Made by a program: the position numbers and the translations under genes
Source of the DNA: Lytechinus pictus
Lineage: Eukaryota
Direction: 5' to 3'
DNA: 64,000 nt
NCBI RefSeq assembly: GCF_037042905.1
Contig: NC_087250.1
Location: 18,230,001-18,294,000, forward strand
Notes under the pieces: model-generated
The model's database searches: none
Told to the model about the DNA's origin: nothing
Seen by the model: the letters and a program-made list of their open reading frames with translations, nothing else
In this document: positions 1,813-50,467 of the stretch, in pieces
Numbering within the stretch: position 1 is the first letter of the stretch
How the letters are laid out: each line of letters opens with the position of its first letter

Positions 1813-1860
<48 letters not shown>

Positions 1861-7383: not shown

Positions 7384-7630
7384 CACTGCAAAACTCCGGT
7401 GTTGATTTAACACCCGCCTGGAATCTACATATGTCCACACAAGAGAAGTGTTAAACAACACCAGTTTGGTTTTGGTCTAACACCAAATATGTGTTTATAG
7501 TTATACACCACCAATTAGTATTAAAAAAGTCTCGGTTTGATTCCAAACTGGAGTTATTTCAATACTTCTCTGGTGTGGACAGATATAGATTCCAGGCAGG
7601 TGTTAAATCAACACCGGAGTTTTTGCAGTG
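7384..7630. mobile_element. Palindromic MITE with CACTG...CAGTG ends (EnSpm/CACTA-like) and 2-bp TA flanks
   Basis: ta|cactgcaaaactccggtgttgatttaacacccgcctggaatcta ... tagattccaggcaggtgttaaatcaacaccggagtttttgcagtg|ta. The arms pair over most of the length. Confidence 0.85.
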
Positions 7631-7929
7631 TACCTACGCACGAAATATGACACCAGAGATTGCGGATATCATATAATATTGCATGGTCATTTTATTGAAC
7701 ATCATTACTACACATAGCACATGGATATTTCTGCACTGAAGGACCTGGGCTCCGTAACACAAAGGTTTGCGATGGAGAACTGCAAGATGACCCAGCGATG
7801 TTGACCGGAAGGTCAGCACGCTTTGTTGGAAGACCCTCGGTCTATGGTACATGGTACATAGACCGAACATACAATAGAAGCATGGTTGGACCGTCAATGC
7901 TTGAAACTGTAGATGATCTTAAAGTTGAC

Positions 7930-13220: not shown

Positions 13221-13805
13221 TATGAGGCGCCGAATGTACCAATATTATATAGAACAATTATTTGTTATATAATCATTATTTATTAAATAATAACTATTAT
13301 TTATATATAATTTACATTTTATTTGTAAATAACTACTATTATATAAAACATAATTTCTAATTATTTATATATAATTCCAAGTAATACTTCATTACTTGTA
13401 AATAATAATAGTTCGACATTCCATTATTTATAAATAATGACTATTTGTTTTTCAATATTTATAAATAATGATTATTTGTTTTTCATTATTTACAAATAAT
13501 GATTATTTGTTTTTCATTATTTATAAATAATGATCATTTGTTTTTCATTATTTATAAATAATGATTATTTGTTTTTCATTATTTATAAATAGTGATTATT
13601 TGTTTTTCATTATTTATAAATAATGATTATTTGTTTTTCATTATTTATAAATAATGATTATTTGTTTTTATATTATTTATAAATAATGACACTACATACT
13701 TCATTATTTATAAATAATGACACTACATACTTCATTATTTATAAATAATTGCAATTCGTTTTTCCGTTATTTATAAATAAGTTTTCTATTATTTATAAAT
13801 AATAA
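13221..13805 (+). repeat. Left TIR, outer segment, with a 31-bp AT-rich minisatellite (~8 copies)
   Basis: Reverse complement of ~49783-50461. The unit ttatttataaataatgattatttgtttttca contains the palindrome ttatttataaataa. Confidence 0.95.
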
Positions 13806-14164
13806 GATTATTCGAATAAGCGAAGAAGATAGTTTGCGAGAGAAGACAGGTCTTCTCAAAAAACCAATTATTGGCAAGCCATACACGGCCCGCGAAAACA
13901 AAGCGCGCCCCTGCGATTCCGCGGGAATTCTCCAAGGACACGCCCCCAGCAACATGTCTGTGATTGGCTGGGCATGTCATGGATGGCGCCGTTACACAGC
14001 GCCCTTGGTGACAGCCAGGCAACGGCAACGGGGGCACAGCCTCTACGCTAAAAAGAACCAATGAAATGCATTGAAAGAATTCAGGGACGTGCGCAATACG
14101 CGACAGATTTGGAAGCACATGTTCATTCTCAACTAAGCTCTGGGGGATGCAAGACGTTAATTTG
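13806..14164 (+). repeat. Repeat A1 (GC-rich, several CCAAT/ATTGG motifs; candidate promoter)
   Basis: Direct repeat of 18233-18591. It contains ccaatt, gattgg and ccaatg. Confidence 0.95.
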
Positions 14165-17100
14165 TAGTTCGCTATGAAACCGTTCTTGGATCATCATAGT
14201 TTAGGCCTCACTTTAGCAGGCTAATACAAACAATTCAAGTACTAGTATTGCTCATCCCAGGTCACAGGGATGTCAGGATAAAATGGATCCCGAGAAAATT
14301 AATTCTCAGCGTTTTTATCAACATTATGAATGGCTAGCCGTCCAGATCTCGCTGACGACACGCTGGTGGAGCTGCAGAGTGCAGTGAAGGGATGGACGGA
14401 TACAACGCTGAATTACCGAACCCCTACAGGGACTATCTCAGTTAGGCCGGGATCACCGTTCTCGTTAGAGGTCTAACGTTAGATCGACCGCTATTTTGCC
14501 ACGGTCTATCGGTGAGACTGCAGAGTTGGAATATACATCAGCTTCCACAGGAATAATAAGTACTTTCAGTCAAACGGAAGCTCTGACCAATGCCGTGAAT
14601 GAGGATATTTGCCGGAGTTGTTCTCCTATGAGTACAACTAGGCCGATTGTCTTTTGAGGCTGTGCCTGTGATAAAACTGCCGGCGATGCTTCGAGTTCGA
14701 TGGAGCTGGATCTAGGTGATTGTTGATGCGAATGGAGTGGAGTTAGGGCCCGGACCACAGTGTATATATCTTGACCCGGTGAGTGTTTGGATCCATGTTT
14801 GTACTTGTAGTTGCACATCTTGACCTAGACCTTAAATGAATTTGGCCTGAACCGGCCGCTATAGTATAGCTATTACTTAACTTGGGGCCCGGAACTCTAA
14901 CGTTATAACTTGTGATACTAGATCCAGGCCTATATCTATTGACCAAATTCAAAGTTCCAACTCAGACTAAATGTCCTCTGGGCCTGGATCTATCCCTATA
15001 ACCCCTTTGGCTTTGGTTCTAGGGCCAACTATGATATACGATATCGATCTAATAGGACCGAACATTTTTCAATATATTTCTAATGTGGTTGCGGGAATGC
15101 AGGATAAATGGAAACTGAAGGACCTAGGCTAGCTTCGACTCGGCTTGGTTTGCGACTGGAGTTGAGTTGCTCCATGAGTTAAGTTGATTCAATATGACTT
15201 TATGAGAGCGTTGGTAAGGGTCGAATCAGAGGGCTTGGCGTCGCGCCCCACTCGGAAAGGCAGCGTTGAACAGTGGACTGAGTTGAATTATCAAATATTA
15301 GGTCAAAACCTATCACAATATGAGTTTTTTGTATTGGATCTAATTAAAGGATCAACATTCTGTTTCGCCAGCTGAGTCCCGGCTCATGCTACAAAATAAA
15401 CAAAAAAGAAATAATCGATGCTCCATACACCAAGCTGGATCCCACGATAATTTGAGCCCATTGATCAGCTGGCATTTTGTAACCAAATTCCCCAAAATGA
15501 ACAGGATAGGGGCTATAAATGAAACTGGGGTGGCTGCCTTCGGTGTGAACAGGGATACGATAAATATGATGAAATAAACTGCATTCGCCTACCGGTACTA
15601 AAACGATATTATTTATTGAGATAGATGGTAGAGGTATAGGTCGATGTACCGTAATCCGTATTTTGCTGTCCATTGGGCGTGTGTAATAATAGTTATTTGC
15701 TTGGTCAACTTCATCCTGTTCTGGACCTACATGAATTAACTGGCAGCTTAGTTGCTTGATGAGGTTGGGGAATGCTAAGATACGTCATTTTTTATAGACC
15801 TCTATTACCAAATTTCAGTTCGGAAATGTAGTCAATGTATGCCCAGCGTCCGTACCACTTATCCCTTCTCGCCGGCCTCGAGTTTATAAGATGGCGTAAA
15901 GATAAAACATAACCACAATAAAATATACGTTGATTGTATCATTCCGGGTGAGGAGGGGAAGTTGAGGGCGTTTGTGCCCCCCCCCCCCGAAATGCTCAAA
16001 AGAGCCCTGGAAAACCCCATTTATTGCCATGTTAAAGCTTATCCAACGCTGTAGGTTCGGCCCCTAGTTGTGAAAAGTGAAGGGAACGAGTGCGGGATTC
16101 ACAAATTCATTGGCATACTTTTTAAAAGGGCGCCTTGGAAAATCCCCTTTTATTGCAATTCTGGAGCGTTGCAAGTTAAGGCGATTAGTTGTGGAAAGTA
16201 TAAGGGAACAGGTATGGAATTCCTTGCACACATTCTTGTCACGTTGTGTTGAACAATACTCTGCCGGAAGATTTGTTTGTTTTTTACCTCTCCAGGGACG
16301 TGGAGTCTGAAGTTAATTGGCCAGGGCACAAATGATCAAGCCTAGACCCAGACTGATGTACGAGGAGACTTAGCTAAGCTTGACCTGGACTGGTGTCCGA
16401 AGGGACAGGGCTTAGACTTGGCTTACTATGGTTCACATTGGATGACAGTGGTTGCAAAGGTTTTCACACTGCAAGATGAGAAATCCGGATTTATTTGAAG
16501 ATGCCGGATTTATGGTTTAACGTAATGCTCTAAATAGACGAGAGGTTGAGAAATGCAGTGATCAAGATCCTTAAGTCCAGACTTGAAGAGGAAACATGAA
16601 TAATCTCGAAGTTGTTGAGAAGTATAACCCTTTCGGAGAAAACTAAAAAACCTTGGAAAAAAGGGGCATTATGGGAACACCTTCAGTTCGTATCTATTTG
16701 TAATTCTGGGCAGCCAGCAAAGTCGGTTGAAGCATCGATAACCAAGAATATAAACAAAAACTGTGAGGCATGTCCCTCTGGTGCATTTATGTGCTTATAT
16801 ATGTCTCTTCCTTTAAGACATAACCTCACCTGTTGTAAGAGGCGATCTCATATATGAAGCCAACTTGAATGTGGGAATGCACGCCTTGATTTTTATGCCC
16901 CCATTTAACTTCATTAATCGATGTGGAATGGATATTATTTGTTTCGATTCACACTGGTGACCAAAAACGGAAAAAAAAAAAGAAAAAAAAAAAAGAGAGA
17001 AAAAAAAAAAAAAAAACTTGCGAACAACATTCACTCGCAGGGGGAATGAAATAAGCAAGGATGCGATGTTGTCAAGCTTGTTAATGGTTTAGAGTGAGAA

Positions 17101-17761
17101 TGGTTGGCCAATGTCCAATTGATGTAGAAATATTTATAACAACTTGGAGGTGTAGACGAAGAGTATGGTATATGATGCGTCCATTCGTTGATCGCATGAG
17201 ATTGCTTTGTATGGAATAATTTTTTGATTGTTGACTATCCATTCCGATGGCTGGCATGGTTTATTGATCATTAACTTAGTTGTTGTCCTTGATTATTGAA
17301 TTGGCTGGGTTGTCGAGCGTGAAAACTCACTTTTGAACTTATGGCTTGGTTGGGCTTGGTTACAGAATTACCGACTGATTATTATCGGTAGCTTTGACAT
17401 CAGCTTTCCAGGGGAGGCAATGGTTTGATAATTTAAAGTCGACGGCACCGATGCACGGCCCTCTATTCTACCATTTAGGGTCGCCGCCGAGGAGGCAGAA
17501 TATGGGACAAAAGAAGATGACGCTCATATTATATATTTTGGTCCTAGTGCAGAGGACAAGGGAGAGAGAGCATAATTTATGGGTTTCCGAAACCATGAGT
17601 TGCAACCAGGAAACCAGACGCGATGGTTTGGGAGGGATGGCCTTGACATGAAGGGACTCCCAAAATCCAATAGTGTTTGCCAAGTGTCACGGCCAAAAAA
17701 AAAAAAAAAAAAAAAAAATGATTATTTGGGGCTTTCGCTTTTTTGTGGGTATTTTTTTTAT

Positions 17762-18591
17762 ATCGGTCAAATTTCAACACCAGGGGGAGGCACTGTATAC
17801 TAATTATGTCAAGAAAATCGGGACAGGGGAACCCAACTTTCCAAAGTCTCCTGGTTTGGAAGTCCGGCTGGATGTCTTCCGGCAGGTTCCCCTTCCAAGA
17901 ATTCACGTTCTGGTCTTGAAGCCTCTCCCCCAATTTTATTTCACACATGAGATAATCTTGTATTGAATAGATGATAAATGTAAAGAGGGGAATCCGCACC
18001 CCAGGAAATACCTGTCCTGGGATCCCGTTGGATCTCTTCCTTCTGGGAGGTCACGTGACCCGGTTTCCCCCTTAAAATCTGGTTGATTGTGGCTTGATGA
18101 ATATTGTTTAGAAACTGTGTACTTGTTAAAATATTGTAAATGTCGTTTTAATGATTCTGGTAAAATCCCCCAGAGGCAATAAAGTTGAGAAACGGCAATT
18201 TCATGTTCGATCTGTATTTATTCTCGCAATAAGATTATTCGAATAAGCGAAGAAGATAGCTTGCGAGAGAAGACAGGTCTTCTCAAAAAACCAATTATTG
18301 GCAAGCCATACACGGCCCGCGAAAACAAAGCGCGCCCCTGCGATTCCGCGGGAATTCTCCAAGGACACGCCCCCAGCAACATGTCTGTGATTGGCTGGGC
18401 ATGTCATGGATGGCGCCGTTACACAGCGCCCTTGGTGACAGCCAGGCAACGGCAACGGGGGCACAGCCTCTACGCTAAAAAGAACCAATGAAATGCATTG
18501 AAAGAATTCAGGGACGTGCGCAATACGCGACAGATTTGGAAGCACATGTTCATTCTCAACTAAGCTCTGGGGGATGCAAGACGTTAATTTG
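17762..18591 (+). repeat. Abutting B1-A2 junction
   Basis: ...tttattctcgc AATAA gattattcgaataagcg... joins the element's right end to its left end. An AATAAA signal lies ~45 bp before the end of B. Confidence 0.95.
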
Positions 18592-18859
18592 CCCTCCCTC
18601 CCGCCCATTTAATAATGGTTGTGAGTGGTTGGTTATAATATTGTCAGGGTCGGAGGGTATTGTTTCTGCCTCCAAAAATGTGGTACACATGTTATGAAAA
18701 AAGATGGATGATATAATACATGGTTGTTAATAATTCTGTCGTGATTTTTGTTTATACTCAAATCTGTCAAAGGCGATTGTGCTAATTAATCTAAATGTGG
18801 TAATAGCGAATTTTAAAGACGGGGCTCGAGATTGCTCAATGAGCCTGTTTAAGTGCAAA

Positions 18860-20225
18860 TTGTGCCGGTTACAGTTGATTGAAATAACCTTATATTTTGG
18901 TTGGTTATACTGTTGATAGATAACATGGATTTATTTTGGTTGGTTGGCTGGGCATGTGTTTGGATAGAATTGCATTGGTTGCATAGGCTTGTATTAGTTG
19001 ACTGGATGGGCTTGATTGGCTTGTTGGTCGGATAGACTTGCATTGGTTGGTTGGGCGATATGTTTGGTTGTTTATTATCATAAGGATCCACGCTCTACAA
19101 GCAAGGCTTTTAGTGGATCCCCTCATTTCCAAACAAGTTCTTGTTAATACAATTGCCCAAATTTTCATAATTTGTCTATAGTTGATTTGTAATTACAATT
19201 GTTGTGTATTTGTGTTTATGCATTTAGTGCATATTTGATTTGTACCGTGATTTTTTTATGATGTACATGACGGAAGTTCAAAATGAACTCGTTTTTATTC
19301 GGTTGGATGTGCTTGCGCTGGTTGGGTGGATGGGCTTGCTATGATTGGTTGGTTGGTTATAATGATCATAGATTCACGCTCTCCAAGTAGTTATTTTAGT
19401 GGATCCCCTCATTTCCAACCAAGCTATTAATACTTTTGTACAAATTTTAAAATTTTGTCTGTAGTGGACCGGCAATTACAATTTATATGTATTTGCAAAT
19501 TGTTTATGCGCACTATGATGCATATTTAATTCGTGTTTGTATTTGGTAATGATGTACAAGATGAACTGAAATTTGTTTGGTGGCTTTATATGGTTGGTTG
19601 GCTGGGCTTGTTCTGGTTGACTACAATTGCACAAATTTTCATAATTTGCAGTTGATTTGGAATTATAATTGATGTGTATTTGTGTTAATGCATTTGATGC
19701 ATATTGATTGGTACCGTAATTTTTTTTGTGATGTACATGACGGAAGTTCAAAAGGAACTTGTTTTGTTTGGTTGGATGGGCTAACATTGGTTGGATCATG
19801 GACCTACTGGTTGGATGTTTGGGCTTGTTATGATTAGTTGATTGGTTATGATCATATCGATCCACGCTCTATCAGCAGATCCTTTAAAAAGATCCCCTCA
19901 GTTTCAACCAAGCTGATAATACTATTGTACAAATATTGAAATTGTGTCCGTAGTTGACTTGTAATTACAATTGATATGTATTGTCATTGTTTATGCATCA
20001 TATCATTTATAATTGATTTATGTTTGTATGTGGTAATGATGTACAAGGTGAACTTAAACTCGTTTGGCTAGTTAGGTTGGCTTTACATGGTTGGATGGTT
20101 GGATGGGCTTGTTATGGTTGGTTGGTCGGGCTTGTTATGGTTGGTTGGTCGGGCTTGATATGGTTGGTTGGATGGGCTTGTTTTGGCTGGTAGGATGGGC
20201 TTGTTTTGGTGTTTGGCCTGATTAC
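18860..20225 (+). repeat. TTGG-rich, strand-skewed degenerate tandem repeats in the A2-B2 spacer
   Basis: gatccacgctct...gatcccctca...aag recurs at ~19086, ~19371 and ~19858. ~23-bp tggttggtyggrtgggcttgtta-like units occur at 20088-20205. Confidence 0.8.
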
Positions 20226-20242
20226 TGAGTATTTTTTCTTAG

Positions 20243-20708
20243 ATCGGTCAAATTTCAACACCAGGGGGAGGCACTGTATACTAATTATGTCAAGAAAATC
20301 GGGACAGGGGAACCCAACTTTCCAAAGTCTCCTGGTTTGGAAGTCCGGCTGGATGTCTTCCGGCAGGTTCCCCTTCCAAGAATTCACGTTCTGGTCTTGA
20401 AGCCTCTCCCCCAATTTTATTTCACACATGAGATAATCTTGTATTGAATAGATGATAAATGTAAAGAGGGGAATCCGCACCCCAGGAAATACCTGTCCTG
20501 GGATCCCGTTGGATCTCTTCCTTCTGGGAGGTCACGTGACCCGGTTTCCCCCTTAAAATCTGGTTGATTGTGGCTTGATGAATATTGTTTAGAAACTGTG
20601 TACTTGTTAAAATATTGTAAATGTCGTTTTAATGATTCTGGTAAAATCCCCCAGAGGCAATAAAGTTGAGAAACGGCAATTTCATGTTCGATCTGTATTT
20701 ATTCTCGC
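20243..20708 (+). repeat. Repeat B2 (3' terminal)
   Basis: Direct repeat of 17762-18227. Confidence 0.95.
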
Positions 20709-20713
20709 AATAA

Positions 20714-21875
20714 TTATTTATTATCAATGCCAGTGCACATTTCTTTATTTATAAATAATTTGTTGAGTTTTCCATTATTTATAAATAAAGATTATTTGTT
20801 AAATTATGAAATATCTACTTCATTATTTATAAATAATAATTTAGTTTCAATATCCCATTATTTATAAATAATCATTATTTATAAACAATTTTTACAGTTT
20901 GCCATTATATACAAATAATCATTATTTATATACAAATAACCATTATTTATTAAATAATGCCATTATTTATTAAATAATGCCATTATTTATTAAATAATGG
21001 AAAACTCGCTATAACATGCAAATGTGGGACCGCCCATGATATGAATATTCATGATGCGATTTCCTTTTTCGTGATTTTTCTTCACAAATTTTTGTCCATT
21101 TCCTCTTCATAATGACATTTCTTGAAGCAATTTTCTAGGGATATGGTCTGATTGTAATATTCTTCATTTTCTATATAACTTCGTCTTCGTAGAAATATCA
21201 AAAAGTGTAATTTTATACGGTTTTTCCTACAGTTCACAATCCCCATAGGCGCGCGTGTATCGTGGGGACAACCGGTGAATCGACGGAGTGCTCTTCATCG
21301 AAATACTACGTTGGTTGGTCCCCGGAAGTGGCTGGCGGAATTTAGCCCGAATCCTCGATGGAAGTCGATCAAGTGCATATGAGCTGAGAGAGTGAAATAT
21401 CAGTGTACTTGTACAGGCCCTTCTACTTTTTATAAATATTTCTTGTTGCTTTTTTTGTTAAGTTAATTTTTCCTGGTGTAGAGATAAGTTTCAGTTCTAA
21501 TAATGCACTTCAAATACATTTTGGAGTGTCTGTTTGGGGCGATTTCACCCTGGCCCCAAAATGCTCGCAACGACAATACGGGGGCATGATGACCCCTAAT
21601 TTTTTTCTATTGAAAATTATCACAAAATTCACCAAAAGTGTGCACGAAAGCCTTCGTATTTCACTTTTAAAACTCCAAAAAGTGCCAAAATGACAAGCTT
21701 GGTCGCTTCGGTGTGTCGCTTTCAACTTGAGAAAGTTTACGCGTCTGCTTCCCCCCCCCCCTCCTCCGAAAGAAATTCTGTATACGGCCATGCTCTAAAG
21801 AGCCTGGCACATTGATTTATGTATACTTCATTTTCATTATTTTTATCTCATTATCATCATGGCCTTACGCAGAAT
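20714..21875 (+). repeat. Left TIR, inner segment (resumes after the SDR insertion)
   Basis: Reverse complement of ~48479-49782 with few substitutions and some indels. Confidence 0.95.
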
Positions 21876-22413
21876 CGGATCAAAAATCAGATCGAAAATC
21901 GGATCGGCAGTTAAGCTTCTAAAATCGAAATCGAATCGAAAATCGAATCGGCGATGTTTAAAAACAAAGGAATACATCAAAATGTTGTTCGCGGTCGCGC
22001 GCATCTTCCTGACAAAGTCACAAAGACGAATGCATTGGAATGGAAGTCGCCAACATGCGCGATCGTTTGGAACATGTTTTAAAGCCAGGGGTTTTGAGGT
22101 GTTATTGCTTTAAAATAAACCGAGTGATTTTTATTAGAAAGATAAACGAAAGACGCATCTTCCGAGCAAAGGCGCAAAGGAAAATAAAATGAAAATATTT
22201 CTCATAGATCACAGGTTAATGAACGATCGGCGGGACATCTTTTAGAAGTATTTCTAGGTGCTAGCGATTTAGAATTATTGGAATGATCTCTTACGACGCA
22301 TCATCTTAAAGTCGCAAGTGCAATTAAAATGAAGTAGACGACGCAAGCACACACGATGATTTGAAATATGTTATTAAAATGTTTTGGGTAGCTAGCGTTT
22401 TCAAATCAATTTG

Positions 22414-25400
22414 AAGTTCACGGCGGGGTCCGCTATCACCACGAGGTTGAAGAGAAGATGTCTATCATCATAAAGGGGGTAAGAGAGTAGCGCAGTGAGC
22501 TCCGTCAGTAGCACGATCTTTAAAAGTTCACGGCGGGGTCCGCTATCACCACGAGGTTGAAAATAAAATGTAAATCATCACAAACGATGTAAGAGAGTAA
22601 CGCAATGAGCTCCGTCAATAGTACGACCTTTCAAAGTTCACGGCGGCATCCGCTATCACCACGAGGTTGAAAATAAAATGTATATCATCATAAACGATGT
22701 AAGAGAGTAACGCAATAAGCTCCGTCAATAGTACAGTCTTTAAAAGTTTCTGGCGGGGTCCGCTATCACCACGAGGTTGAAGAGAAGATTTATATCATTA
22801 TAAACGATGTAAGAGATTAGCGCAGTGAGCTCCGTCGGTAATACGACCTTTCAAAGTTCACGGCGGCTTCCGCTATCACCACGAGGTTGAAAATAAAATG
22901 AATATCATCATAAACGATGTAAGAGAGTAACGCAATAAGCTCCGTCAGTAGCACGATCTTTAAAAGTTCACGGCGGGGTCCGCTATCACCACGAGGTTGA
23001 AAATAAAATGTAAATCATCATAAACGATGTAAGAGAGTAACGCAATGAGCTCCGTCAATAGTACGACCTTTCAAAGTTCACGGCGGCATCCGCTATCACC
23101 ACGAGGTTGAAAATAAAATGTATATCATCATAAACGATGTAAGAGAGTAACGCAATAAGCTCCGTCAGTAGCACGATCTTTAAAAGTTCACGGCGGCATC
23201 CGCTATCACCACGAGGTTGAAAATAAAATGTATATCATCATAAACGATGTAAGAGAGTAACGCAATAAGCTCCGTCAATAGTACAGTCTTTAAAAGTTTC
23301 TGGCGGGGTCCGCTATCACCACGAGGTTGAAGAGAAGATTTATATCATTATAAACGATGTAAGAGAGTAGCGCAGTGAGCTCCGTCGGTAATACGACCTT
23401 TCAAAGTTCACGGCGGCTTCCGCTATCACCACGAGGTTGAAAATAAAATGAATATCATCATAAACGATGTAAGAGAGTAACGCAATAAGCTCCGTCAGTA
23501 GCACGATCTTTAAAAGTTCACGGCGGGGTCCGCTATCACCACGAGGTTGAAAATAAAATGTAAATCATCATAAACGATGTAAGAGAGTAACGCAATGAGC
23601 TCCGTCAATAGTACGACCTTTCAAACTTCATGGCGGCATCCGCTATCACCACGAGGTTGAAAATAAAATGTATATCATCATAAACGATGTAAGAGAGTAA
23701 CGCAATAAGCTCCGTCAGTAGCACGATCTTTAAAAGTTCACGGCGGGGTCCGCTATCACCACGAGGTTGAAAATAAAATGTAAATCATCATAAACGATGA
23801 AAGAGAGTAACGCAATGAGCTCCGTCAATAGTACAGTCTTTAAAAGTTTCTGGCGGGGTCCGCTATCACCACGAGGTTGAAGAGAAGATTTATATCATTA
23901 TAAACGATGTAAGAGAGTAGCGCAGTGAGCTCCGTCGGTAATACGACCTTTCAAAGTTCACGGCGGCTTCCGCTATCACCACGAGGTTGAAAATAAAATG
24001 AATATCATCATAAACGATGTAAGAGAGTAACGCAATAAGCTCCGTCAGTAGCACGATCTTTAAAAGTTCACGGCGGGGTCCGCTATCACCACGAGGTTGA
24101 AAGAAAAATGTAAATCATCATAAACGATGTAAGAGAGTAACGCAATGAGCTCCGTCAAAAGTACGACCTTTCAAAGTTCACGGCGGCATCCGCTATCACC
24201 ACGAGGTTGAAAATAAAATGTATATCATTATAAACGATGTAAGAGAGTAACGCAATAAGCTCCGTCAGTAGCACGATCTTTAAAAGTTCACGGCGGGGTC
24301 CGCTATCACCACGAGGTTGAAAGTAAAATGAAAAATCATCATAAACGATGTAAGAGAGTAACGCAATAAGCTCCGTCAATAGTACGATCTTTAAAAGTTC
24401 ACGGCGGGGTCCGCTATCACCACGAGGTTGAAAATAAAATGTAAATCATCATAAACGATGTAAGAGAGTAACGCAATGAGCTCCGTCAATAGTACGACCT
24501 TTCAAAGTTCACGGCGGCATCCGCTATCACCACGAGGTTGAAAATGAAATGTATATCATTATAAACGATGTAAGAGAGTAACGCAATAAGCTCCGTCAGT
24601 AGCACGATCTTTAAAAGTTCACGGCGGGGTCCGCTATCACCACGAGGTTGAAAATAAAATGAAAAATCATCATAAACGATGTAAGAGAGTAACGCAATGA
24701 GCTCCGTCAATAGTACGACCTTTCAAAGTTCACGGCGGCATCCGCTATCACCACGAGGTTGAAAATAAAATGTATATCATCATAAACGATGTAAGAGAGT
24801 AACGCAATAAGCTCCGTCAATAGTACAGTCTTTAAAAGTTCACGGCGGGGTCCGCTATCACCACGAGGTTGAAGAGAAGATTTATATCATTATAAACGAT
24901 GTAAGAGAGTAGCGCAGTGGGCTCCGTCGGTAATACGACCTTTCAAAGTTCACGGCGGCTTCCGCTATCACCACGAGGTTGAAAATAAAATGTAAATCAT
25001 CATAAACGATGTAAGAGAGTAACGCAATGAGCTCCGTCAATAGTACGACCTTTCAAAGTTCACGGCGGCATCCGCTATCACCACGAGGTTGAAAATAAAA
25101 TGTATATCATCATAAACGATGTAAGAGAGTAACGCAATAAGCTCCGTCAGTAGCACGATCTTTAAAAGTTCACGGCGGCATCCGCTATCACCACGAGGTT
25201 GAAAATAAAATGTATATCATCATAAACGATGTAAGAGAGTAACGCAATAAGCTCCGTCAATAGTACAGTCTTTAAAAGTTTCTGGCGGGGTCCGCTATCA
25301 CCACGAGGTTGAAGAGAAGATTTATATCATTATAAACGATGTAAGAGAGTAGCGCAGTGAGCTCCGTCGGTAATACGACCTTTCAAAGTTCACGGCGGCT

Positions 25401-40400: not shown

Positions 40401-43400
40401 GGTTAAAGAGAAGATTTATATCATTATAAACGATGTAAGAGAGTAGCGCAGTGAGCTCCGTCGGTAATACGACCTTTCAAAGTTCACGGCGGCTTCCGCT
40501 ATCACCACGAGGTTGAAAATAAAATGAATATCATCATAAACGATGTAAGAGAGTAACGCAATAAGCTCCGTCAGTAGCACGATCTTTAAAAGTTCACGGC
40601 GGGGTCCGCTATCACCACGAGGTTGAAAATAAAATGAAAAATCATCATAAACGATGTAAGAGAGTAACGCAATGAGCTCCGTCAATAGTACGACCTTTCA
40701 AAGTTCACGGCGGCATCCGCTATCACCACGAGGTTGAAAATAAAATGTATATCATCATAAACGATGTAAGAGAGTAACGCAATAAGCTCCGTCAATAGTA
40801 CAGTCTTTAAAAGTTTCTGGCGGGGTCCGCTATCACCACGAGGTTGAAGAGAAGATTTATATCATTATAAACGATGTAAGAGAGTAGCGCAGTAAGCTCC
40901 GTCGGTAATACGACCTTTCAAAGTTCACGGCGGCTTCCGCTATCACCACGAGGTTGAAAATAAAATGAATGTCATCATAAATGATGTAAGAGAGTAACGC
41001 AATAAGCTCCGTCAATAGTACAGTTTTTAAAATTTTCTGGCGGGGTCCGCTATCACCACGAGGTTAAAGAGAAGATTTATATCATTATAAACGATGTAAG
41101 AGAGTAGCGCAGTGAGCTCCGTCGGTAATACGACCTTTCAAAGTTCACGGCGGCTTCCGCTATCACCACGAGGTTGAAAATAAAATGAATATCATCATAA
41201 ACGATGTAAGAGAGTAACGCAATAAGCTCCGTCAATAGTACAGTCTTTAAAAGTTTCTGGCGGGGTCCGCTATCACCACGAGGTTGAAAATAAAATGTAT
41301 ATCATCATAAACGATGTAAGAGAGTAACGCAATAAGCTCCGTCAGTAGCACGATCTTTAAAAGTTCACGGCGGCATCCGCTATCACCACGAGGTTGAAAA
41401 TAAAATGTATATCATCATAAACGATGTAAGAGAGTAACGCAATAAGCTCCGTCAATAGTACAGTCTTTAAAAGTTTCTGGCGGGGTCCGCTATCACCACG
41501 AGGTTGAAGAGAAGATTTATATCATTATAAACGATGTAAGAGAGTAGCGCAGTGAGCTCCGTCGGTAATACGACCTTTCAAAGTTCACGGCGGCTTCCGC
41601 TATCACCACGAGGTTGAAAATAAAATGAATATCATCATAAACGATGTAAGAGAGTAACGCAATAAGCTCCGTCAGTAGCACGATCTTTAAAAGTTCACGG
41701 CGGGGTCCGCTATCACCACGAGGTTGAAAATAAAATGTAAATCATCATAAACGATGTAAGAGAGTAACGCAATGAGCTCCGTCAATAGTACGACCTTTCA
41801 AAGTTCATGGCGGCATCCGCTATCACCACGAGGTTGAAAATAAAATGTATATCATCATAAACGATGTAAGAGAGTAACGCAATAAGCTCCGTCAGTAGCA
41901 CGATCTTTAAAAGTTCACGGCGGGGTCCGCTATCACCACGAGGTTGAAAATAAAATGTAAATCATCATAAACGATGAAAGAGAGTAACGCAATGAGCTCC
42001 GTCAATAGTACAGTCTTTAAAAGTTTCTGGCGGGGTCCGCTATCACCACGAGGTTGAAGAGAAGATTTATATCATTATAAACGATGTAAGAGAGTAGCGC
42101 AGTGAGCTCCGTCGGTAATACGACCTTTCAAAGTTCACGGCGGCTTCCGCTATCACCACGAGGTTGAAAATAAAATGAATATCATCATAAACGATGTAAG
42201 AGAGTAACGCAATAAGCTCCGTCAGTAGCACGATCTTTAAAAGTTCACGGCGGGGTCCGCTATCACCACGAGGTTGAAAATAAAATGTAAATCATCATAA
42301 ACGATGTAAGAGAGTAACGCAATGAGCTCCGTCAATAGTACGACCTTTCAAAGTTCACGGCGGCATCCGCTATCACCACGAGGTTGAAAATAAAATGTAT
42401 ATCATTATAAACGATGTAAGAGAGTAACGCAATAAGCTCCGTCAGTAGCACGATCTTTAAAAGTTCACGGCGGGGTCCGCTATCACCACGAGGTTGAAAA
42501 TAAAATGAAAAATCATCATAAACGATGTAAGAGAGTAACGCAATGAGCTCCGTCAATAGTACGACCTTTCAAAGTTCACGGCGGCATCCGCTATCACCAC
42601 GAGGTTGAAAATAAAATGTATATCATCATAAACGATGTAAGAGAGTAACGCAATAAGCTCCGTCAATAGTACAGTCTTTAAAAGTTCACGGCGGGGTCCG
42701 CTATCACCACGAGGTTGAAGAGAAGATTTATATCATTATAAACGATGTAAGAGAGTAGCGCAGTGAGCTCCGTCGGTAATACGACCTTTCAAAGTTCACG
42801 GCGGCTTCCGCTATCACCACGAGGTTGAAAATAAAATGAATGTCATCATAAATGATGTAAGAGAGTAACGCAATAAGCTCCGTCAATAGTACAGTTTTTA
42901 AAATTTTCTGGCGGGGTCCGCTATCACCACGAGGTTGAAGAGAAGATTTATATCATTATAAACGATGTAAGAGAGTAGCGCAGTGAGCTCCGTCGGTAAT
43001 ACGACCTTTCAAAGTTCACGGCGGCTTCCGCTATCACCACGAGGTTGAAAATAAAATGAATATCATCATAAACGATGTAAGAGAGTAACGCAATAAGCTC
43101 CGTCAATAGTACAGTCTTTAAAAGTTTCTGGCGGGGTCCGCTATCACCACGAGGTTGAAAATAAAATGTATATCATCATAAACGATGTAAGAGAGTAACG
43201 CAATAAGCTCCGTCAGTAGCACGATCTTTAAAAGTTCACGGCGGCATCCGCTATCACCACGAGGTTGAAAATAAAATGTATATCATCATAAACGATGTAA
43301 GAGAGTAACGCAATAAGCTCCGTCAATAGTACAGTCTTTAAAAGTTTCTGGCGGGGTCCGCTATCACCACGAGGTTGAAGAGAAGATTTATATCATTATA

Positions 43401-46400
43401 AACGATGTAAGAGAGTAGCGCAGTGAGCTCCGTCGGTAATACGACCTTTCAAAGTTCACGGCGGCTTCCGCTATCACCACGAGGTTGAAAATAAAATGAA
43501 TATCATCATAAACGATGTAAGAGAGTAACGCAATAAGCTCCGTCAGTAGCACGATCTTTAAAAGTTCACGGCGGGGTCCGCTATCACCACGAGGTTGAAA
43601 ATAAAATGTAAATCATCATAAACGATGTAAGAGAGTAACGCAATGAGCTCCGTCAATAGTACGACCTTTCAAAGTTCATGGCGGCATCCGCTATCACCAC
43701 GAGGTTGAAAATAAAATGTATATCATCATAAACGATGTAAGAGAGTAACGCAATAAGCTCCGTCAGTAGCACGATCTTTAAAAGTTCACGGCGGGGTCCG
43801 CTATCACCACGAGGTTGAAAATAAAATGTAAATCATCATAAACGATGAAAGAGAGTAACGCAATGAGCTCCGTCAATAGTACAGTCTTTAAAAGTTTCTG
43901 GCGGGGTCCGCTATCACCACGAGGTTGAAGAGAAGATTTATATCATTATAAACGATGTAAGAGAGTAGCGCAGTGAGCTCCGTCGGTAATACGACCTTTC
44001 AAAGTTCACGGCGGCTTCCGCTATCACCACGAGGTTGAAAATAAAATGAATATCATCATAAACGATGTAAGAGAGTAACGCAATAAGCTCCGTCAGTAGC
44101 ACGATCTTTAAAAGTTCACGGCGGGGTCCGCTATCACCACGAGGTTGAAAATAAAATGTAAATCATCATAAACGATGTAAGAGAGTAACGCAATGAGCTC
44201 CGTCAATAGTACGACCTTTCAAAGTTCACGGCGGCATCCGCTATCACCACGAGGTTGAAAATAAAATGTATATCATTATAAACGATGTAAGAGAGTAACG
44301 CAATAAGCTCCGTCAGTAGCACGATCTTTAAAAGTTCACGGCGGGGTCCGCTATCACCACGAGGTTGAAAATAAAATGAAAAATCATCATAAACGATGTA
44401 AGAGAGTAACGCAATAAGCTCCGTCAATAGTACGATCTTTAAAAGTTCACGGCGGGGTCCGCTATCACCACGAGGTTGAAAATAAAATGTAAATCATCAT
44501 AAACGATGTAAGAGAGTAACGCAATGAGCTCCGTCAATAGTACGACCTTTCAAAGTTCACGGCGGCATCCGCTATCACCACGAGGTTGAAAATAAAATGT
44601 ATATCATTATAAACGATGTAAGAGAGTAACGCAATAAGCTCCGTCAGTAGCACGATCTTTAAAAGTTCACGGCGGGGTCCGCTATCACCACGAGGTTGAA
44701 AATAAAATGTAAATCATCATAAACGATGTAAGAGAGTAACGCAATGAGCTCCGTCAATAGTACGACCTTTCAAAGTTCACGGCGGCATCCGCTATCACCA
44801 CGAGGTTGAAAATAAAATGTATATCATTATAAACGATGTAAGAGAGTAACGCAATAAGCTCCGTCAGTAGCACGATCTTTAAAAGTTCACGGCGGGGTCC
44901 GCTATCACCACGAGGTTGAAAATAAAATGAAAAATCATCATAAACGATGTAAGAGAGTAACGCAATGAGCTCCGTCAATAGTACGACCTTTCAAAGTTCA
45001 CGGCGGCATCCGCTATCACCACGAGGTTGAAAATAAAATGTATATCATCATAAACGATGTAAGAGAGTAACGCAATAAGCTCCGTCAATAGTACAGTCTT
45101 TAAAAGTTCACGGCGGGGTCCGCTATCACCACGAGGTTGAAGAGAAGATTTATATCATTATAAACGATGTAAGAGAGTAGCGCAGTGAGCTCCGTCGGTA
45201 ATACGACCTTTCAAAGTTCACGGCGGCTTCCGCTATCACCACGAGGTTGAAAATAAAATGAATGTCATCATAAATGATGTAAGAGAGTAACGCAATAAGC
45301 TCCGTCAATAGTACAGTTTTTAAAATTTTCTGGCGGGGTCCGCTATCACCACGAGGTTGAAGAGAAGATTTATATCATTATAAACGATGTAAGAGAGTAG
45401 CGCAGTGAGCTCCGTCGGTAATACGACCTTTCAAAGTTCACGGCGGCTTCCGCTATCACCACGAGGTTGAAAATAAAATGAATATCATCATAAACGATGT
45501 AAGAGAGTAACGCAATAAGCTCCGTCAATAGTACAGTCTTTAAAAGTTTCCGGCGGGGTCCGCTATCACCACGAGGTTGAAAATAAAATGTATATCATCA
45601 TAAACGATGTAAGAGAGTAACGCAATAAGCTCCGTCAGTAGCACGATCTTTAAAAGTTCACGGCGGCATCCGCTATCACCACGAGGTTGAAAATAAAATG
45701 TATATCATCATAAACGATGTAAGAGAGTAACGCAATAAGCTCCGTCAATAGTACAGTCTTTAAAAGTTTCTGGCGGGGTCCGCTATCACCACGAGGTTGA
45801 AGAGAAGATTTATATCATTATAAACGATGTAAGAGAGTAGCGCAGTGAGCCCCGTCGGTAATACGACCTTTCAAAGTTCACGGCGACTTCCGCTATCACC
45901 ACGAGGTTGAAAATAAAATGAATATCATCATAAACGATGTAAGAGAGTAACGCAATAAGCTCCGTCAGTAGCACGATCTTTAAAAGTTCACGGCGGGGTC
46001 CGCTATCACCACGAGGTTGAAAATAAAATGTAAATCATCATAAACGATGTAAGAGAGTAACGCAATGAGCTCCGTCAATTGTACGACCTTTCAAAGTTTA
46101 TGGCGGCATCCGCTATCACCACGAGGTTGAAAATAAAATGTATATCATCATAATCGATGTAAGAGAGTAACGCAATAAGCTCCGTCAGTAGCACGATCTT
46201 TAAAAGTTCACGGCGGGGTCCGCTATCACCACGAGGTTGAAAATAAAATGTAAATCATCATAAACGATGAAAGAGAGTAACGCAATGAGCTCCGTCAATA
46301 GTACAGTCTTTAAAAGTTTCTGGCGGGGTCCGCTATCACCACGAGGTTGAAGAGAAGATTTATATCATTATAAACGATGTAAGAGAGTAGCGCAGTGAGC

Positions 46401-47798
46401 TCCGTCGGTAATACGACCTTTCAAAGTTCACGGCGGCTTCCGCTATCACCACGAGGTTGAAAATAAAATGAATATCATCATAAACGATGTAAGAGAGTAA
46501 CGCAATAAGCTCCGTCAGTAGCACGATCTTTAAAAGTTCACGGCGGGTTCCGCTATCACCACGAGGTTGAAAATAAAATGTAAATCATCATAAACGATGT
46601 AAGAGAGTAACGCAATGAGCTCCGTCAATAGTACGACCTTTCAAAGTTCACGGCGGGGTCCGCTATCACCACGAGGTTGAAAATAAAATGAAAAATCATC
46701 ATAAACGATGTAAGAGAGTAACGCAATGAGCTCCGTCAATAGTACGACCTTTCAAAGTTCACGGCGGCATCCGCTATCACCACGAGGTTGAAAATAAAAT
46801 GTATATCATTATAAACGATGTAAGAGAGTAACGCAATAAGCTCCGTCAGTAGCACGATCTTTAAAAGTTCACGGCGGGGTCCGCTATCACCACGAGGTTG
46901 AAAATAAAATGAAAAATCATCATAAACGATGTAAGAGAGTAACGCAATGAGCTCCGTCAATAGTACGACCTTTCAAAGTTCACGGCGGCATCCGCTATCA
47001 CCACGAGGTTGAAAATAAAATGTATATCATCATAAACGATGTAAGAGAGTAACGCAATAAGCTCCGTCAATAGTACAGTCTTTAAAAGTTCACGGCGGGG
47101 TCCGCTATCACCACGAGGTTGAAGAGAAGATTTATATCATTATAAACGATGTAAGAGAGTAGCGCAGTGAGCTCCGTCGGTAATACGACCTTTCAAAGTT
47201 CACGGCGGCTTCCGCTATCACCACGAGGTTGAAAATAAAATGAATGTCATCATAAATGATGTAAGAGAGTAACGCAATAAGCTCCGTCAATAGTACAGTT
47301 TTTAAAAGTTTCTGGCGGGGTCCGCTATCACCACGAGGTTGAAGAGAAGATTTATATCATTATAAACGATGTAAGAGAGTAGCGCAGTGAGCTCCGTCGG
47401 TAATACGACCTTTCAAAGTTCACGGCGGCTTCCGCTATCACCACGAGGTTGAAAATAAAATGAATATCATCATAAACGATGTAAGAGAGCAACGCAATAA
47501 GCTCCGTCAATAGTACAGTCTTTAAAAGTTAATGGCGGGGTCCGCTATCACCACGAGGTTGAAGAGAAGATTTATATCATTATAAAGGGGGTAAGAGAGT
47601 AGCGCAGTGAGCTCCGTCGGTAATACGACCTTTCAAAGTTCACGACGGCATCCGCTATCACCACGAGGTTGAAAATAAAATGTATATAATCATAAACGAT
47701 GTAAGAGAGTAACGCAGTGTGCTCCGTCGGTAATACGACCTTTCAAAGTTCACGGCGGCATCCGCTATCACCATGAGTTGGAAGAGAAGATATCTATC
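22414..47798 (+). repeat. Satellite array, 110-bp monomer (some 111 bp), ~230 copies, head-to-tail with higher-order organisation
   Basis: Near-invariant blocks ccgctatcaccacgaggtt, taagagagta and gctccgtc recur every 110 bp. A few discrete variant types are arranged in a basic 4-mer (440 bp, e.g. 22501 vs 22941). Confidence 0.99.
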
Positions 47799-48044
47799 CC
47801 CTTAAACATTGCCATAGATAATACCGCGACTTTCTCCCTGAATAATGCGACCTCTAAATAGCTAGCACCTCAAAAACAATCTTGAAATATGTTCTGAGCG
47901 ATCACGCACTGTAACCAGATCTACGCCGATTTTTTATTTTCGATTTTTTCCTTCAAGGGGCATGATCGAAGATCGGCAAGTGATTGCCGATTGTGGTGAA
48001 ATCGAATGGAATCGGTTGCCGATTGCAAAATCGGTTACAAGCTG

Positions 48045-48720
48045 GGGGGAGCAGGACGCGCGTAAACTTTCTCATAAAAATCTTGAAAAAGCGGAGCGAC
48101 CAAGCTTGTCATTTGAGCTTGGTCGCGTCGCTGTCTCGCTTTCAAGATTTTTTTGAGAAACTTTACGCGCGTCCTAGCTGCTCCCCCCCCCCCCCCTGGT
48201 AAAAATTCTGTGTAAGGCCATGATGATAATGTGATAAAAATAATGAAAATGAAAAGTACATATAAATCAATGTGCCATATGCTCTTTTGAGCATGGCCGT
48301 TCACGGAATTTCTTTCGCAAGGTGGGGGCAGACACGCGTAAACGTTCTCAAGTTGAAAGCGAGACAGCGAAGCGACCAAGCTTGTCATTTGGGCTTGGTC
48401 CCGTGGCTGTCTCGCTTTCAAGATTTTTTTGAGAAAGTTTACGCGCGCCATGCTCCGGCCCCGGCCCCCCTGGAAAAAATTCTGCGTAAGGCCATGTTGA
48501 TAATGAGATAAAAATAATGAAAATGAAAGTATACATAAATCAATGTGCCAGGCTCTTTAGAGCATGGCCGTATGCAGAATTTCTTTCGGAGGAGGGGGGG
48601 GGGAAGCAGACGCGTAAATGTTCTAAAGTTGAAAGCGACACAGCGAAGCGACACAGCGAAGCGACCAAGCTTGTCATTTGGGTACTTTTTGGAGTTTTAA
48701 AAGTGAAATACGAAGGCTTT
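48045..48720. repeat. Three ~275-290 bp units built around hairpins with core gcgaccaagcttgtcatttg
   Basis: The core is at ~48097, ~48372 and ~48661. ggacgcgcgtaaactttctca...tgagaaactttacgcgcgtcc forms a stem at 48054-48174. Confidence 0.8.
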
Positions 48721-50461
48721 CGTGCACACTTTTGGTGAATTTTGTGATAATTTTCAATAGAAAAATAAGTTTTTAAAAATTTAGGGGTCATCATGCCCCC
48801 GTATTGTCGTTGCGAGCATTTTGGGGCCAGGGTGAAATCGCCCCAAACGCCTCAAACAGACACTCCAAAATATATTTGAAGTGCATTATTAGAACTGAAA
48901 CTTATCTCTACACCAGGAAAAATTAACTTAACAAAAAAAGCAACAAGAAATATTTATAAAAAGTAGAAGGCCTGTACAAGTACACTGATATTTCACTCTC
49001 TCAGCTCATATGCACTTGATCGACTTCCATCGAGGATTCGGGCTAAATTCCGCCAGCCACTTCCGGGGACCAACCAACGTAGTATTTCGATGAAGAGCAC
49101 TCCGTCGATTCACCGGTTGTCCCTACGATACACGCGCGCCTATGGGGATTGTGAACTGAAGGAGAAATCGTATAAAATTACACTTTTTGATATTTCTACG
49201 AAGACGAATGTATATAGAAAATGAAGAATATTACAATCAGACCATATCCCTAGAAAATTGCTTCAAGAAATGTCATTATGAAGAGGAAATGGACAAAAAT
49301 TTGTGAAGAAAAATCACGAAAAAGGAAATCGCATCATGATTATTCATATCATGGGTGGTCCCACATTTGCATGTTATAGCGAGTTTTCCATTATTTAATA
49401 AATAATGGCATTATTTAATAAATAATGGTTATTTGTATATAAATAATGATTATTTGTATATAATGGCAAACTGTAAAAATTGTTTATAAATAATGATTAT
49501 TTATAAATAATGGGATATAGAAACTAAATTATTATTTATAAATAATGAAGTAGATATTTCATTATTTAACAAATAATCTTTATTTATAAATAATGGAAAA
49601 CTCGAACATTAAATAATGATTATTTATAAATAATGAGAATAATGGTGCACTCGAAAAAATTATTTATAAATAATGAAGTAGACGTTTTCATTATTTAACA
49701 AATAATCATTATTTATAAATAATGGAAAACTCAACAAATTATTTATAAGTAAAGAAATGTGCACTGGCATTGATAATAAATAATTATTATTTATAAATAA
49801 TAGAAAACTTATTTATAAATAACGGAAAAACGAATTGCAATTATTTATAAATAATGAAGTATGTAGTGTCATTATTTATAAATAATATAAAAACAAATAA
49901 TCATTATTTATAAATAATGAAAAACAAATAATCATTATTTATAAATAATGAAAAACAAATAATCATTATTTATAAATAATGAAAAACAAATAATCATTAT
50001 TTATAAATAATGAAAAACAAATAATCATTATCTATAAATAATGAAAAACAAATAATCATTATTTGTAAATAATGAAAAACAAATAATCATTATTTATAAA
50101 TAATGAAAAACAAATAATCATTATTTATAAATAATAAAAAACAAATAATCATTATTTGTAAATAATGAAAAACAAATAATCATTATTAATAAATAATGAA
50201 AAACAAATAATCATTATTTATAAATAATGAAAAACAAATAATCATTATTTATAAATAATGGAAGGTCGAACTATTATTATTTACAAATAATGAAGTATTA
50301 CTTGGAATTATATATAAATAATTAGAAATTATATTTTATATACTAGTAGTTATTTACAAATAAAATGTAATTTATATATAAATAATAGTTATTATTGAAT
50401 AAATAATGATTATATAACAAATAATTGTTCTATATAATATTGGTACATTCGGCGCCTCATA
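48479..50461 (-). repeat. Right TIR (1,983 bp, uninterrupted), with ~12 copies of the 31-bp minisatellite
   Basis: Reverse complement of 13221-13805 joined to 20714-21875. Confidence 0.95.
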
Positions 50462-50467
50462 CTCGGC

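What the first reader, a model, noticed from the sequence alone, without database searches (positions are those of the whole stretch)
13221..50461. A 37-kb transposon whose cargo is a 25-kb satellite: candidate satellite-dispersal vehicle
Seen: exact inverted ends TATGAGGCGCCGAATGTACC at 13221 and 50461, arms that pair for ~1.75-2.0 kb once the SDR insertion is removed, and a 6-bp flank duplication with one mismatch (gtcggc/ctcggc). The uninterrupted target is in host copy 2 (~54846-54866), so everything in between, satellite included, is foreign to the locus. Known: TAY..RTA ends with 6-bp TSDs characterise IS3EU transposons, and TE-internal repeats can seed satellites. Inference: a non-autonomous IS3EU-like foldback family carries the 110-bp repeat and either moved with a very large array or seeded one that grew in place. 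A satellite with both carrier arms, the TSD and an empty-site paralog all intact is an unusually complete record.
Basis: partly seen in the sequence, partly recalled or inferred. Interest (0 to 1): 0.85.

Follow-up and report, generated by a model that had tools for sequence, protein, structure and literature searches.

The report
Nested transposons, satellite grown in place
A 4-kb foldback transposon was later inflated to 37 kb by two unrelated mobile elements, and one of these, not the foldback, is the genome-wide carrier of the 110-bp repeat, whose array then expanded on the spot.

Summary
Exact inverted 20-mers lie at 13221 and 50461. Paired arms span about 1.6-1.8 kb. The flanks are GTCGGC and CTCGGC, and two paralogs carry the empty site.

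The outer element (family A) is a non-autonomous foldback transposon with about 450 copies. All 16 other copies fetched have perfect 6-bp duplications and TA..TA ends, which fits IS3EU/GingerRoot. Canonical copies are about 4 kb, and none of the 16 contains the 110-bp repeat.

The 26.2-kb core (21876-48042) belongs to a second family, B. B has TAATGTTGTAA.. inverted ends and 8-bp duplications, is hAT-like, and has roughly 200 copies. B carries the 110-bp array everywhere else, with 1-43 monomers in 20 copies.

The window's B copy lacks both tips, has no duplication, and replaces about 20 bp of A. Both A-B junctions were found only here. Private substitutions suggest A (0.81%) is older than B (0.12%). 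Kilobase blocks of the array are 100% identical, so most growth happened in place.

A third element, with Ngaro/DIRS-like split direct repeats, interrupts the left arm.

The "satellite cargo of the foldback" reading fails its own refutation test. The kind is known: nested transposons and transposon-borne satellite seeds.

The parts
13215..13220 (.). Left copy of the 6-bp target-site duplication (GTCGGC)
   Evidence: it matches the single GTCGGC in two empty paralogs.
13221..13805 (.). Family A foldback transposon, outer part of the left arm. It holds a 200-bp unique tip and then 31-bp tandem subrepeats.
   Evidence: The first 200 bp are 99% identical to the listed genomic copies.
13806..20708 (.). 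Nested 6.9-kb element (family C) with split direct repeats. The repeat pieces are A1 13801-14164, B1 17746-18232, A2 18228-18591 and B2 20226-20713. There is no open frame of 160 aa or more.
   Evidence: A relative nested in another A copy (L067) encodes reverse transcriptase/RNase H, a tyrosine recombinase and a GDSL hydrolase.
20709..21875 (.). Family A, inner left arm (to 21721) and the start of the central 276-bp-repeat region
   Evidence: Homology to canonical copies stops at 21875.
21876..22413 (+). Family B, 5' unique region. It lacks the first 10-13 nt of the B inverted end.
   Evidence: One search lists 40 other copies at 99-100% over all 538 bp. The truncation is seen against 20 full copies.
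22414..47777 (+). 110-bp tandem array of about 230 monomers. The first and last monomer types are the same as in mobile B copies. The interior is built from recently duplicated blocks.
47778..48042 (+). Family B, 3' unique region. It lacks the last 2-3 nt of the B inverted end.
   Evidence: One search lists many copies at 100% over all 265 bp. The truncation is shown.
48043..50461 (.). Family A, central 276-bp repeats (to 48645) and the right arm (48646-50461)
50462..50467 (.). Right copy of the target-site duplication (CTCGGC), with one substitution
54850..54855 (.). Empty target site (a single GTCGGC) in the paralogous host segment

Best explanation
Three unrelated mobile elements are nested here.

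(1) Family A landed first. It is a non-autonomous foldback DNA transposon with TA..TA tips, a 6-bp duplication and a canonical length of about 4 kb. Its arms are built from a unique tip, 31-bp subrepeats and an inner unique part, and its centre from 276-bp repeats. It inserted into one unit of a local tandem host duplication.

(2) A 6.9-kb element with Ngaro/DIRS-type split direct repeats later entered the left arm, inside the AT-rich palindromic motif of the A subrepeats.

(3) A copy of family B came to lie in the central region of A. B has short TAATGTTGTAA.. inverted ends, an 8-bp duplication and subterminal ATCGG/ATCGA motifs, and is hAT-like. Genome-wide, B is the real carrier of the 110-bp repeat.

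This B copy lacks both of its tips, has no 8-bp duplication and replaces about 17-22 bp of A. There are 1-3 bp of microhomology at the junctions. I infer that it arrived by break repair or end-joining of an excised or copied B element, or that its ends were destroyed by abortive excision. Either way it can no longer be cut out by its own transposase.

Its array then grew from a typical few dozen monomers to about 230. Growth was by repeated duplication of multi-monomer blocks, through unequal exchange or slippage.

Shown: the three families, their ends and duplications, the truncation, the uniqueness of the junctions and the block structure. Inferred: the order of events, the repair mechanism and the cause of the expansion.
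For: Family A:
- 454 forward and 453 reverse exact ends in the genome, against 0 controls.
- 16 of 16 other fetched copies have perfect 6-bp duplications.
- Of the 47 end pairs listed, 40 are 3.4-4.8 kb, 2 are shorter and 5 are longer.
- Those 5 longer copies carry other nested DNA at varied positions. None holds B or an obvious transposase frame.
- Canonical homology stops at 21875 and resumes at 48043. The block replaces TTTTTCCGGGGGGGGGG(CCGGT).

Family B:
- The first look found 403 candidates for the 5' part and 373 for the 3' part. The 40 scored for each are 99-100% identical.
- The degenerate-end pattern gives 250+242 hits against 34+42 controls.
- 20 of 20 fetched copies have both B ends, and 15 of 20 have perfect 8-bp duplications.
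- These copies hold 1-43 monomers.
- Of the 39 listed end pairs, 36 are 6.1 kb or less. The three larger ones showed no 110-bp repeat where examined.

Window copy of B:
- It starts at CGGATC instead of TAATGTTGTAAATCGGATC, and ends at CAAGCT instead of CAAGCTTA.
- Both 120-bp junction probes gave a full-length match only at the window's own place. All other scored hits stop at the junction.

Order of events:
- Private substitutions are 22 of 2701 in the window's A, against 8 of 6564 in three control A copies (p=7e-7).
- They are 1 of 803 in the window's B ends (A versus B p=0.042).
- The array begins EBDAC.. and ends ..DADAB, like the mobile copies.
- 20 of 45 1.1-kb chunks have a 100% identical twin elsewhere in the array, and 25 of 45 have one at 99.8% or more. 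The lags are 17, 43, 85 and 106 monomers. Neighbouring monomers match at only about 78-86%.
Against: - The A-versus-B age contrast rests on one B substitution (p=0.042).
- The comparison copies were picked as the best matches to the window, so 'private' A changes could mark an unsampled older subfamily rather than time since insertion.
- B ends could also be kept uniform by gene conversion.
- Only the best 40 of more than 1000 candidates were scored in the junction searches.
- Perfectly identical kilobase blocks inside an array are also what an assembler can produce, and no reads spanning the array could be examined. In one search no contig crossed 50461/50462.
- The B superfamily and the A superfamily are assigned from ends and duplications only. 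No cognate transposase was linked to either.
- The break-repair mechanism is inferred from a single locus.
Confidence: 0.8

Rival explanations
1. The foldback element acquired the satellite-bearing block elsewhere and transposed to this site as a large composite, so it acted as a satellite vehicle.
For: Both A tips are intact and 99% identical to active-looking copies over 200 bp. One clean 6-bp duplication brackets everything. Longer A copies of 5.6-18.8 kb with perfect duplications exist, so size alone is not excluded.
Against: The junctions were found only at this locus. None of the 16 other A copies holds B or the repeat. The A part carries about 7 times more private changes than the B ends. 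At least 20 of 45 array chunks are duplicated at 100% identity, which makes them younger than the A insertion. The longer A copies are explained by later nested insertions at varied positions.
Confidence: 0.08
2. B inserted into A by ordinary transposition with an 8-bp duplication. Both of its ends, together with the duplicated target bases, were later deleted, for example by abortive excision attempts repaired by end-joining.
For: About 20 bp are missing on each side, counting target plus tip, and the losses are centred on the element ends. Five of 20 other B copies already show small irregularities between tip and duplication.
Against: It needs two separate deletions, where a single aberrant integration would do. 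No remnant of an 8-bp duplication is left.
Confidence: 0.25
3. Assembly artefact. The 25-kb array length, or the joins between A and B, are products of mis-assembly of repeats.
For: Kilobase blocks at 100% identity lie inside a tandem array. All three families are high-copy and 99-100% identical between copies. No read-level support was obtained.
Against: Two independent chimeric joins would have to fall within about 20 bp of the same position of one A copy, in matching orientation, and leave complementary arms and a matching duplication. The array starts and ends with the monomer types proper to B, next to the proper B flanks.
Confidence: 0.07

Closest known systems
IS3EU / GingerRoot DNA transposons (non-autonomous derivatives)
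   Same: TA..TA termini, a 6-bp target-site duplication and terminal inverted repeats. [quoted passage not shown] PMC6839031 reports 72 of 77 elements with TA..TA ends and mostly 6-bp duplications, and finds the superfamily in animals too (passages read).
   Different: The arms here are 1.6-1.8 kb and full of tandem subrepeats. GingerRoot inverted repeats are given as 100-150 bp. No integrase-related transposase was tied to these ends.
Foldback elements, e.g. Tetris of Drosophila virilis
   Same: Long inverted arms made of tandem subrepeats, non-autonomous, and associated with satellite DNA. The table of review PMC9659126 lists Tetris as a foldback whose inverted repeat gave satellite arrays.
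   Different: In Tetris the satellite derives from the element's own arm repeats. Here the satellite belongs to a different, nested element. The 9-bp duplication of Drosophila FB is recalled, not checked, and A makes 6 bp.
CgHINE, Helentron non-autonomous elements of Crassostrea gigas that carry central tandem repeats
   Same: A mobile element with a central satellite-like array of variable copy number, dispersed genome-wide, as family B does here (review passage; search listing and abstract of PMC7492417).
   Different: B has inverted ends and 8-bp duplications, so it is a cut-and-paste type. It has no rolling-circle features.
hAT superfamily non-autonomous elements
   Same: An 8-bp duplication and short inverted ends beginning TAATG. 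The target shows T at position 2 in 13 of 19 sites and A at position 7 in 11 of 19. The nTnnnnAn preference of hAT is recalled.
   Different: No hAT transposase with these ends was found or sought. Other superfamilies also make 8-bp duplications.
Ngaro / DIRS-order tyrosine-recombinase retroelements
   Same: The split direct repeat layout A1..B1A2..B2. A relative encodes reverse transcriptase/RNase H, a tyrosine recombinase and a GDSL hydrolase. The insertion needs no duplication, because AATAA also sits at the internal junction.
   Different: The window copy has no long open frame, so it is non-autonomous or decayed.

Membership tests
IS3EU/GingerRoot (family A) | 5'-TA..TA-3' termini | tested here: met
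   TATGAGG..CCTCATA in the window and in 16 of 16 other copies.
IS3EU/GingerRoot (family A) | 6-bp target-site duplication | tested here: met
   16 of 16 other copies are perfect. The window has 5 of 6, with the original GTCGGC kept in two empty paralogs.
IS3EU/GingerRoot (family A) | An autonomous partner with the same ends that encodes an integrase-related DDE transposase | tested here: inconclusive
   No transposase frame lies in the 5 long copies. The NCBIfam IS481 model finds 51 DDE matches, none over the cut-off. Most lie in 1100-1580 aa frames of retrotransposon size, and a few lie in 580-840 aa frames.
Drosophila-type foldback (FB) elements | Long inverted arms composed of tandem subrepeats | tested here: met
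   31-bp subrepeats, 11.5 copies on the left and 15.6 on the right, plus 17-22-bp motif arrays inside 1.6-1.8 kb arms.
Drosophila-type foldback (FB) elements | 9-bp duplication (recalled) | tested here: not met
   6 bp in 16 of 16 copies.
hAT (family B) | 8-bp target-site duplication | tested here: met
   15 of 20 are perfect. The other 5 are offset by a few extra or missing bases.
hAT (family B) | hAT transposase (with dimerisation domain) in an autonomous copy with the same ends | not tested
   The one large B-ended element read in full (10.9 kb) has no frame of 120 aa or more. Another holds a nested retrotransposon integrase motif.
Helitron/Helentron carriers (CgHINE-like), considered for B | No inverted ends of the cut-and-paste kind and no target duplication | tested here: not met
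   B has TAA..TTA inverted tips and 8-bp duplications.
Ngaro/DIRS (family C) | Split direct repeats and tyrosine recombinase plus reverse transcriptase | tested here: inconclusive
   The repeats are met in the window. The enzymes are found only in a relative that shares 391 bp. The tyrosine-recombinase matches are near or below the Pfam cut-offs.
Satellite DNA | A long head-to-tail array of a monomer over 100 bp | tested here: met
   230 copies of 110 bp, 25.4 kb. Chromosomal role or location was not tested.

The most novel reading that the evidence does not exclude
The long-palindrome context of a foldback transposon acts as an incubator. A break in its central region captured a satellite-carrying element by repair, which destroyed that element's tips and immobilised it. 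The same hairpin-prone context then drove a five-fold or greater array expansion. This would make the locus a dated snapshot of the step from a transposon-borne seed to a true satellite. Because the outer tips are intact, the 37-kb composite could still be mobilised as a unit.
Probability: 0.15. Interest if true: 0.6.

Novelty: new member of a known kind. Interest (0 to 1): 0.33.

Why it matters
The finding corrects the vehicle. In this genome the 110-bp repeat is spread by a hAT-like element with roughly 200 copies and variable arrays of 1-43 monomers. It is not spread by the foldback family.

The locus also gives an unusually legible example of a transposon-borne array turning into a 25-kb satellite-like block. 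Both carrier flanks are present, the terminal monomer order is conserved, and the block duplications are datable.

For annotation, the case shows that a clean duplication plus an empty site around a large interval does not make everything inside it cargo.

Tried and rejected
- Read-level test of the right host junction. The best run holds only 0.26 of the sampled words. No contig bridges 50461/50462. One contig ends at 50461 and runs on into another locus. This gave no verdict on presence/absence or on the assembly.
- Runs labelled as another organism hold A-like ends at about 90% likeness. This was not followed up.
- Alternate haplotig search with the right flank. Only local paralogs at 94% or less were found, and no second allele.
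- Autonomous family A. The five long copies have no transposase frame. L003 diverges from A at 672 bp, but that is another nested retroelement whose start resembles family C's.
- IS481-model search. It gave candidate DDE frames that could not be inspected.
- Large B-ended pairs of 10.9, 11.2 and 18.7 kb as possible long arrays or autonomous B. The fully read 10.9-kb element has no 110-bp anchors, and 0 of 6 sampled points in the other two show the repeat. There is no long frame in the 10.9-kb one, and a retrotransposon integrase motif in the 11.2-kb one.
- Rfam and tRNA scans of the window: 0 matches.
- Earlier findings of this scan: none.
- A shifted 9-bp duplication (GTCGGCTAT) was considered and rejected, because other copies show no TAT after the 6-bp duplication.
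- A first self-BLAST of the whole array returned nothing. It was replaced by the chunked search.
Full report
**1. Observation**

The 20-mer TATGAGGCGCCGAATGTACC starts at 13221, and its reverse complement ends at 50461. The flanks are GTCGGC (13215-13220) and CTCGGC (50462-50467).

Inverted-repeat search pairs 13221-13805 and 20709-21721 with 48646-50461 at 95-100%. That gives arms of 1598 and 1816 bp once 13806-20708 is taken out.

TRF finds a 110-bp array at 22414-47777 with 230.3 copies. It also finds 31-bp subrepeats in both arms and a 276-bp repeat at 48090-48652.

The empty site lies at 54850-54855. The left flank aligns to the paralog up to 54855 (94.8%) and the right flank from 54851 (95.8%). 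A third paralog outside the window, L079, has the identical empty GTCGGC site. The C in the right-hand copy is therefore a later substitution.

**2. The outer element, family A**

The window lies in an 812-Mb assembly. The 20-mer end occurs 454 times forward and 453 times reverse, against 0 for the reversed control.

- Ten complete copies (L031-L040) measure 1.6-4.2 kb, and 10 of 10 have perfect 6-bp duplications.
- Six more copies of 0.45-18.8 kb also have perfect duplications.
- Among the 47 end pairs in the first 100 listed places, 40 are 3.4-4.8 kb, 2 are shorter and 5 are longer.
- Those five longer copies contain other DNA at varied positions. None has family B sequence or a plausible transposase frame.
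- Canonical copies are pure foldbacks: a unique tip, 31-bp subrepeats, an inner unique part and central 276-bp units.
- None of the ten canonical copies matches the 110-bp monomer or its immediate flanks.
- The first 1.7 kb of 29 further end stretches are canonical in 28. Several of those stretches overlap the ten full copies. The exception, L003, holds another nested retroelement.

TA..TA tips and 6-bp duplications are the two structural hallmarks given for IS3EU and GingerRoot (PMC10045372 and PMC6839031, passages read). The transposase criterion could not be met:

- The NCBIfam IS481 model finds 51 DDE matches, none over the cut-off.
- Most lie in frames of retrotransposon size, and a few lie in 580-840 aa frames.
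- Their ends could not be read.

**3. The core is a different element, family B**

Homology between the window and canonical A stops at 21875 and resumes at 48043. The 26,167-bp block replaces TTTTTCCGGGGGGGGGG(CCGGT) of A.

The block's 538-bp left part had 403 first-look candidates and its 265-bp right part had 373. The 40 scored for each are 99-100% identical. Elsewhere the two parts lie 0.95-5.8 kb apart with 110-bp monomers between them.

Twenty fetched copies define the true ends as TAATGTTGTAAATCGG...ATCGGTTACAAGCTTA.

- 15 of 20 have perfect 8-bp duplications (L045 and L046 share identical flanks). The other five are offset by a few bases.
- The target shows T at position 2 in 13 of 19 distinct sites and A at position 7 in 11 of 19. 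This resembles the hAT preference as I recall it.
- A degenerate pattern for both tips gives 250+242 hits against 34+42 controls, which suggests roughly 200 intact copies.
- Of 39 listed pairs, 36 are 6.1 kb or less.
- The three larger pairs are not long arrays. The 10.9-kb one has no monomer anchor and no frame of 120 aa or more. The other two show no repeat at 0 of 6 sampled points, and one holds a retrotransposon integrase motif.

Family B, not family A, is therefore the dispersal vehicle of the 110-bp repeat.

**4. How B sits in A**

The window's B copy begins at CGGATC and lacks TAATGTTGTA, with AAT shared between B and A. It ends at CAAGCT and lacks TA, with T ambiguous. There is no 8-bp duplication, and about 17-22 bp of A are missing.

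Probes of 120 bp across each junction gave a full-length match only at the window's own place. Every other scored hit stops at the junction (40 of more than 1000 candidates were scored).

I infer an aberrant arrival. One route is end-joining or templated repair of a break in the central region of A. The other is ordinary insertion followed by loss of both ends. In both cases the copy is immobilised. The data do not separate these two routes.

**5. Order and growth**

Private substitutions are bases seen in no other sampled copy.

| Sequence compared | Private substitutions | Rate |
|---|---|---|
| Window's A | 22 of 2701 | 0.81% |
| Three control A copies not overlapped by other loci | 8 of 6564 | 0.12% |
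| Window's B ends | 1 of 803 | 0.12% |

The window's A differs from the control A copies with Fisher p=7e-7. The window's A differs from its B ends with p=0.042.

Monomer typing shows the window array starting EBDAC.. and ending ..DADAB, as in mobile copies. It holds 230 monomers against 1-43 in 20 other copies.

Of 45 overlapping 1.1-kb chunks, 20 have a 100% identical twin elsewhere in the array, and 25 have one at 99.8% or more. The lags are 17, 43, 85 and 106 monomers. Adjacent monomers match at only about 78-86%.

Most of the array is therefore younger than the A insertion and grew in place by block duplication.

Caveats:
- The sample of B differences is small.
- The 'private' A changes could reflect subfamily structure in A.
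- Gene conversion may keep B ends uniform.
- The identical blocks could be assembly artefacts.

**6. The arm insertion, family C**

The stretch 13806-20708 has the layout A1 (13801-14164), B1 (17746-18232), A2 (18228-18591) and B2 (20226-20713) at 99.4-99.7%. This layout is split direct repeats.

AATAA lies at both outer junctions and at the internal B1/A2 junction, so no duplication need be assumed.

The 5' repeat had 90 first-look candidates in the genome, often in pairs about 5.1 kb apart. The window copy has no long frame.

A related element nested in another A copy encodes reverse transcriptase/RNase H, a tyrosine recombinase and a GDSL hydrolase. The recombinase matches are weak, near the Pfam cut-offs. 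This composition is Ngaro/DIRS-like by recall.

**7. Read evidence**

The one run search and one laying allowed gave no bridging contig at the right host junction. The assembly and any presence/absence polymorphism remain untested.

**8. Comparison and verdict**

Transposon-borne tandem arrays as satellite seeds are established. Examples are CgHINE Helentrons in the Pacific oyster and Tetris in Drosophila virilis (review PMC9659126, passages and table read). Nested insertions are commonplace.

What this locus adds:
- A cut-and-paste carrier family with 8-bp duplications and arrays of 1-43 units.
- One tip-damaged copy whose array expanded more than five-fold inside a foldback transposon.

The 'satellite cargo of an IS3EU-like foldback' reading is not supported. 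The transposon call itself, and 'grew in place', are supported.

Noticed in passing
window 13806-20708; L003 (its insert starts 672 bp in from the family A end); L067 about 221-7738: Retroelements that start with a similar motif (GATTATTCGAAT...) have inserted at least twice into the AT-rich palindromic TTATTTATAA(A)TAA motif of family A arms. Family C here shows the split-direct-repeat layout. The core AATAA is shared between the element's internal junction and the target. This hints at site-preferring tyrosine-recombinase integration without a duplication.
   Followed up: partly
window 50462-64000 and C6:18311121-18325793 (outside the window): The 'host' DNA is itself a local tandem cluster of 4.4-kb and 8.3-kb units at 79-96% identity. 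It has no long open frames. A LINE-type reverse transcriptase fragment lies at 3225-4172.
   Followed up: partly
window 51074-51300: This stretch is covered at extreme depth, hundreds of thousands of summed contig depth, in runs labelled as another organism. It is a very abundant repeat shared across species.
   Followed up: no
L071+L072 (G000:C2:38716733-38727620): A 10.9-kb element has perfect family B tips and an 8-bp duplication (ATCATATC). It has no 110-bp monomer and no frame of 120 aa or more. It looks like a B relative with other non-coding content.
   Followed up: partly
L045 and L046 (G000:C26:1112470-1114220 and C19:31943-33693): Two 967-bp B copies with about one monomer have identical flanks on two different contigs. 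They are either a segmental duplication or the same locus assembled twice.
   Followed up: no
G000:C2:7328762-7334859: The order of the tips suggests one B copy nested inside another: two 5' tips followed by two 3' tips.
   Followed up: no
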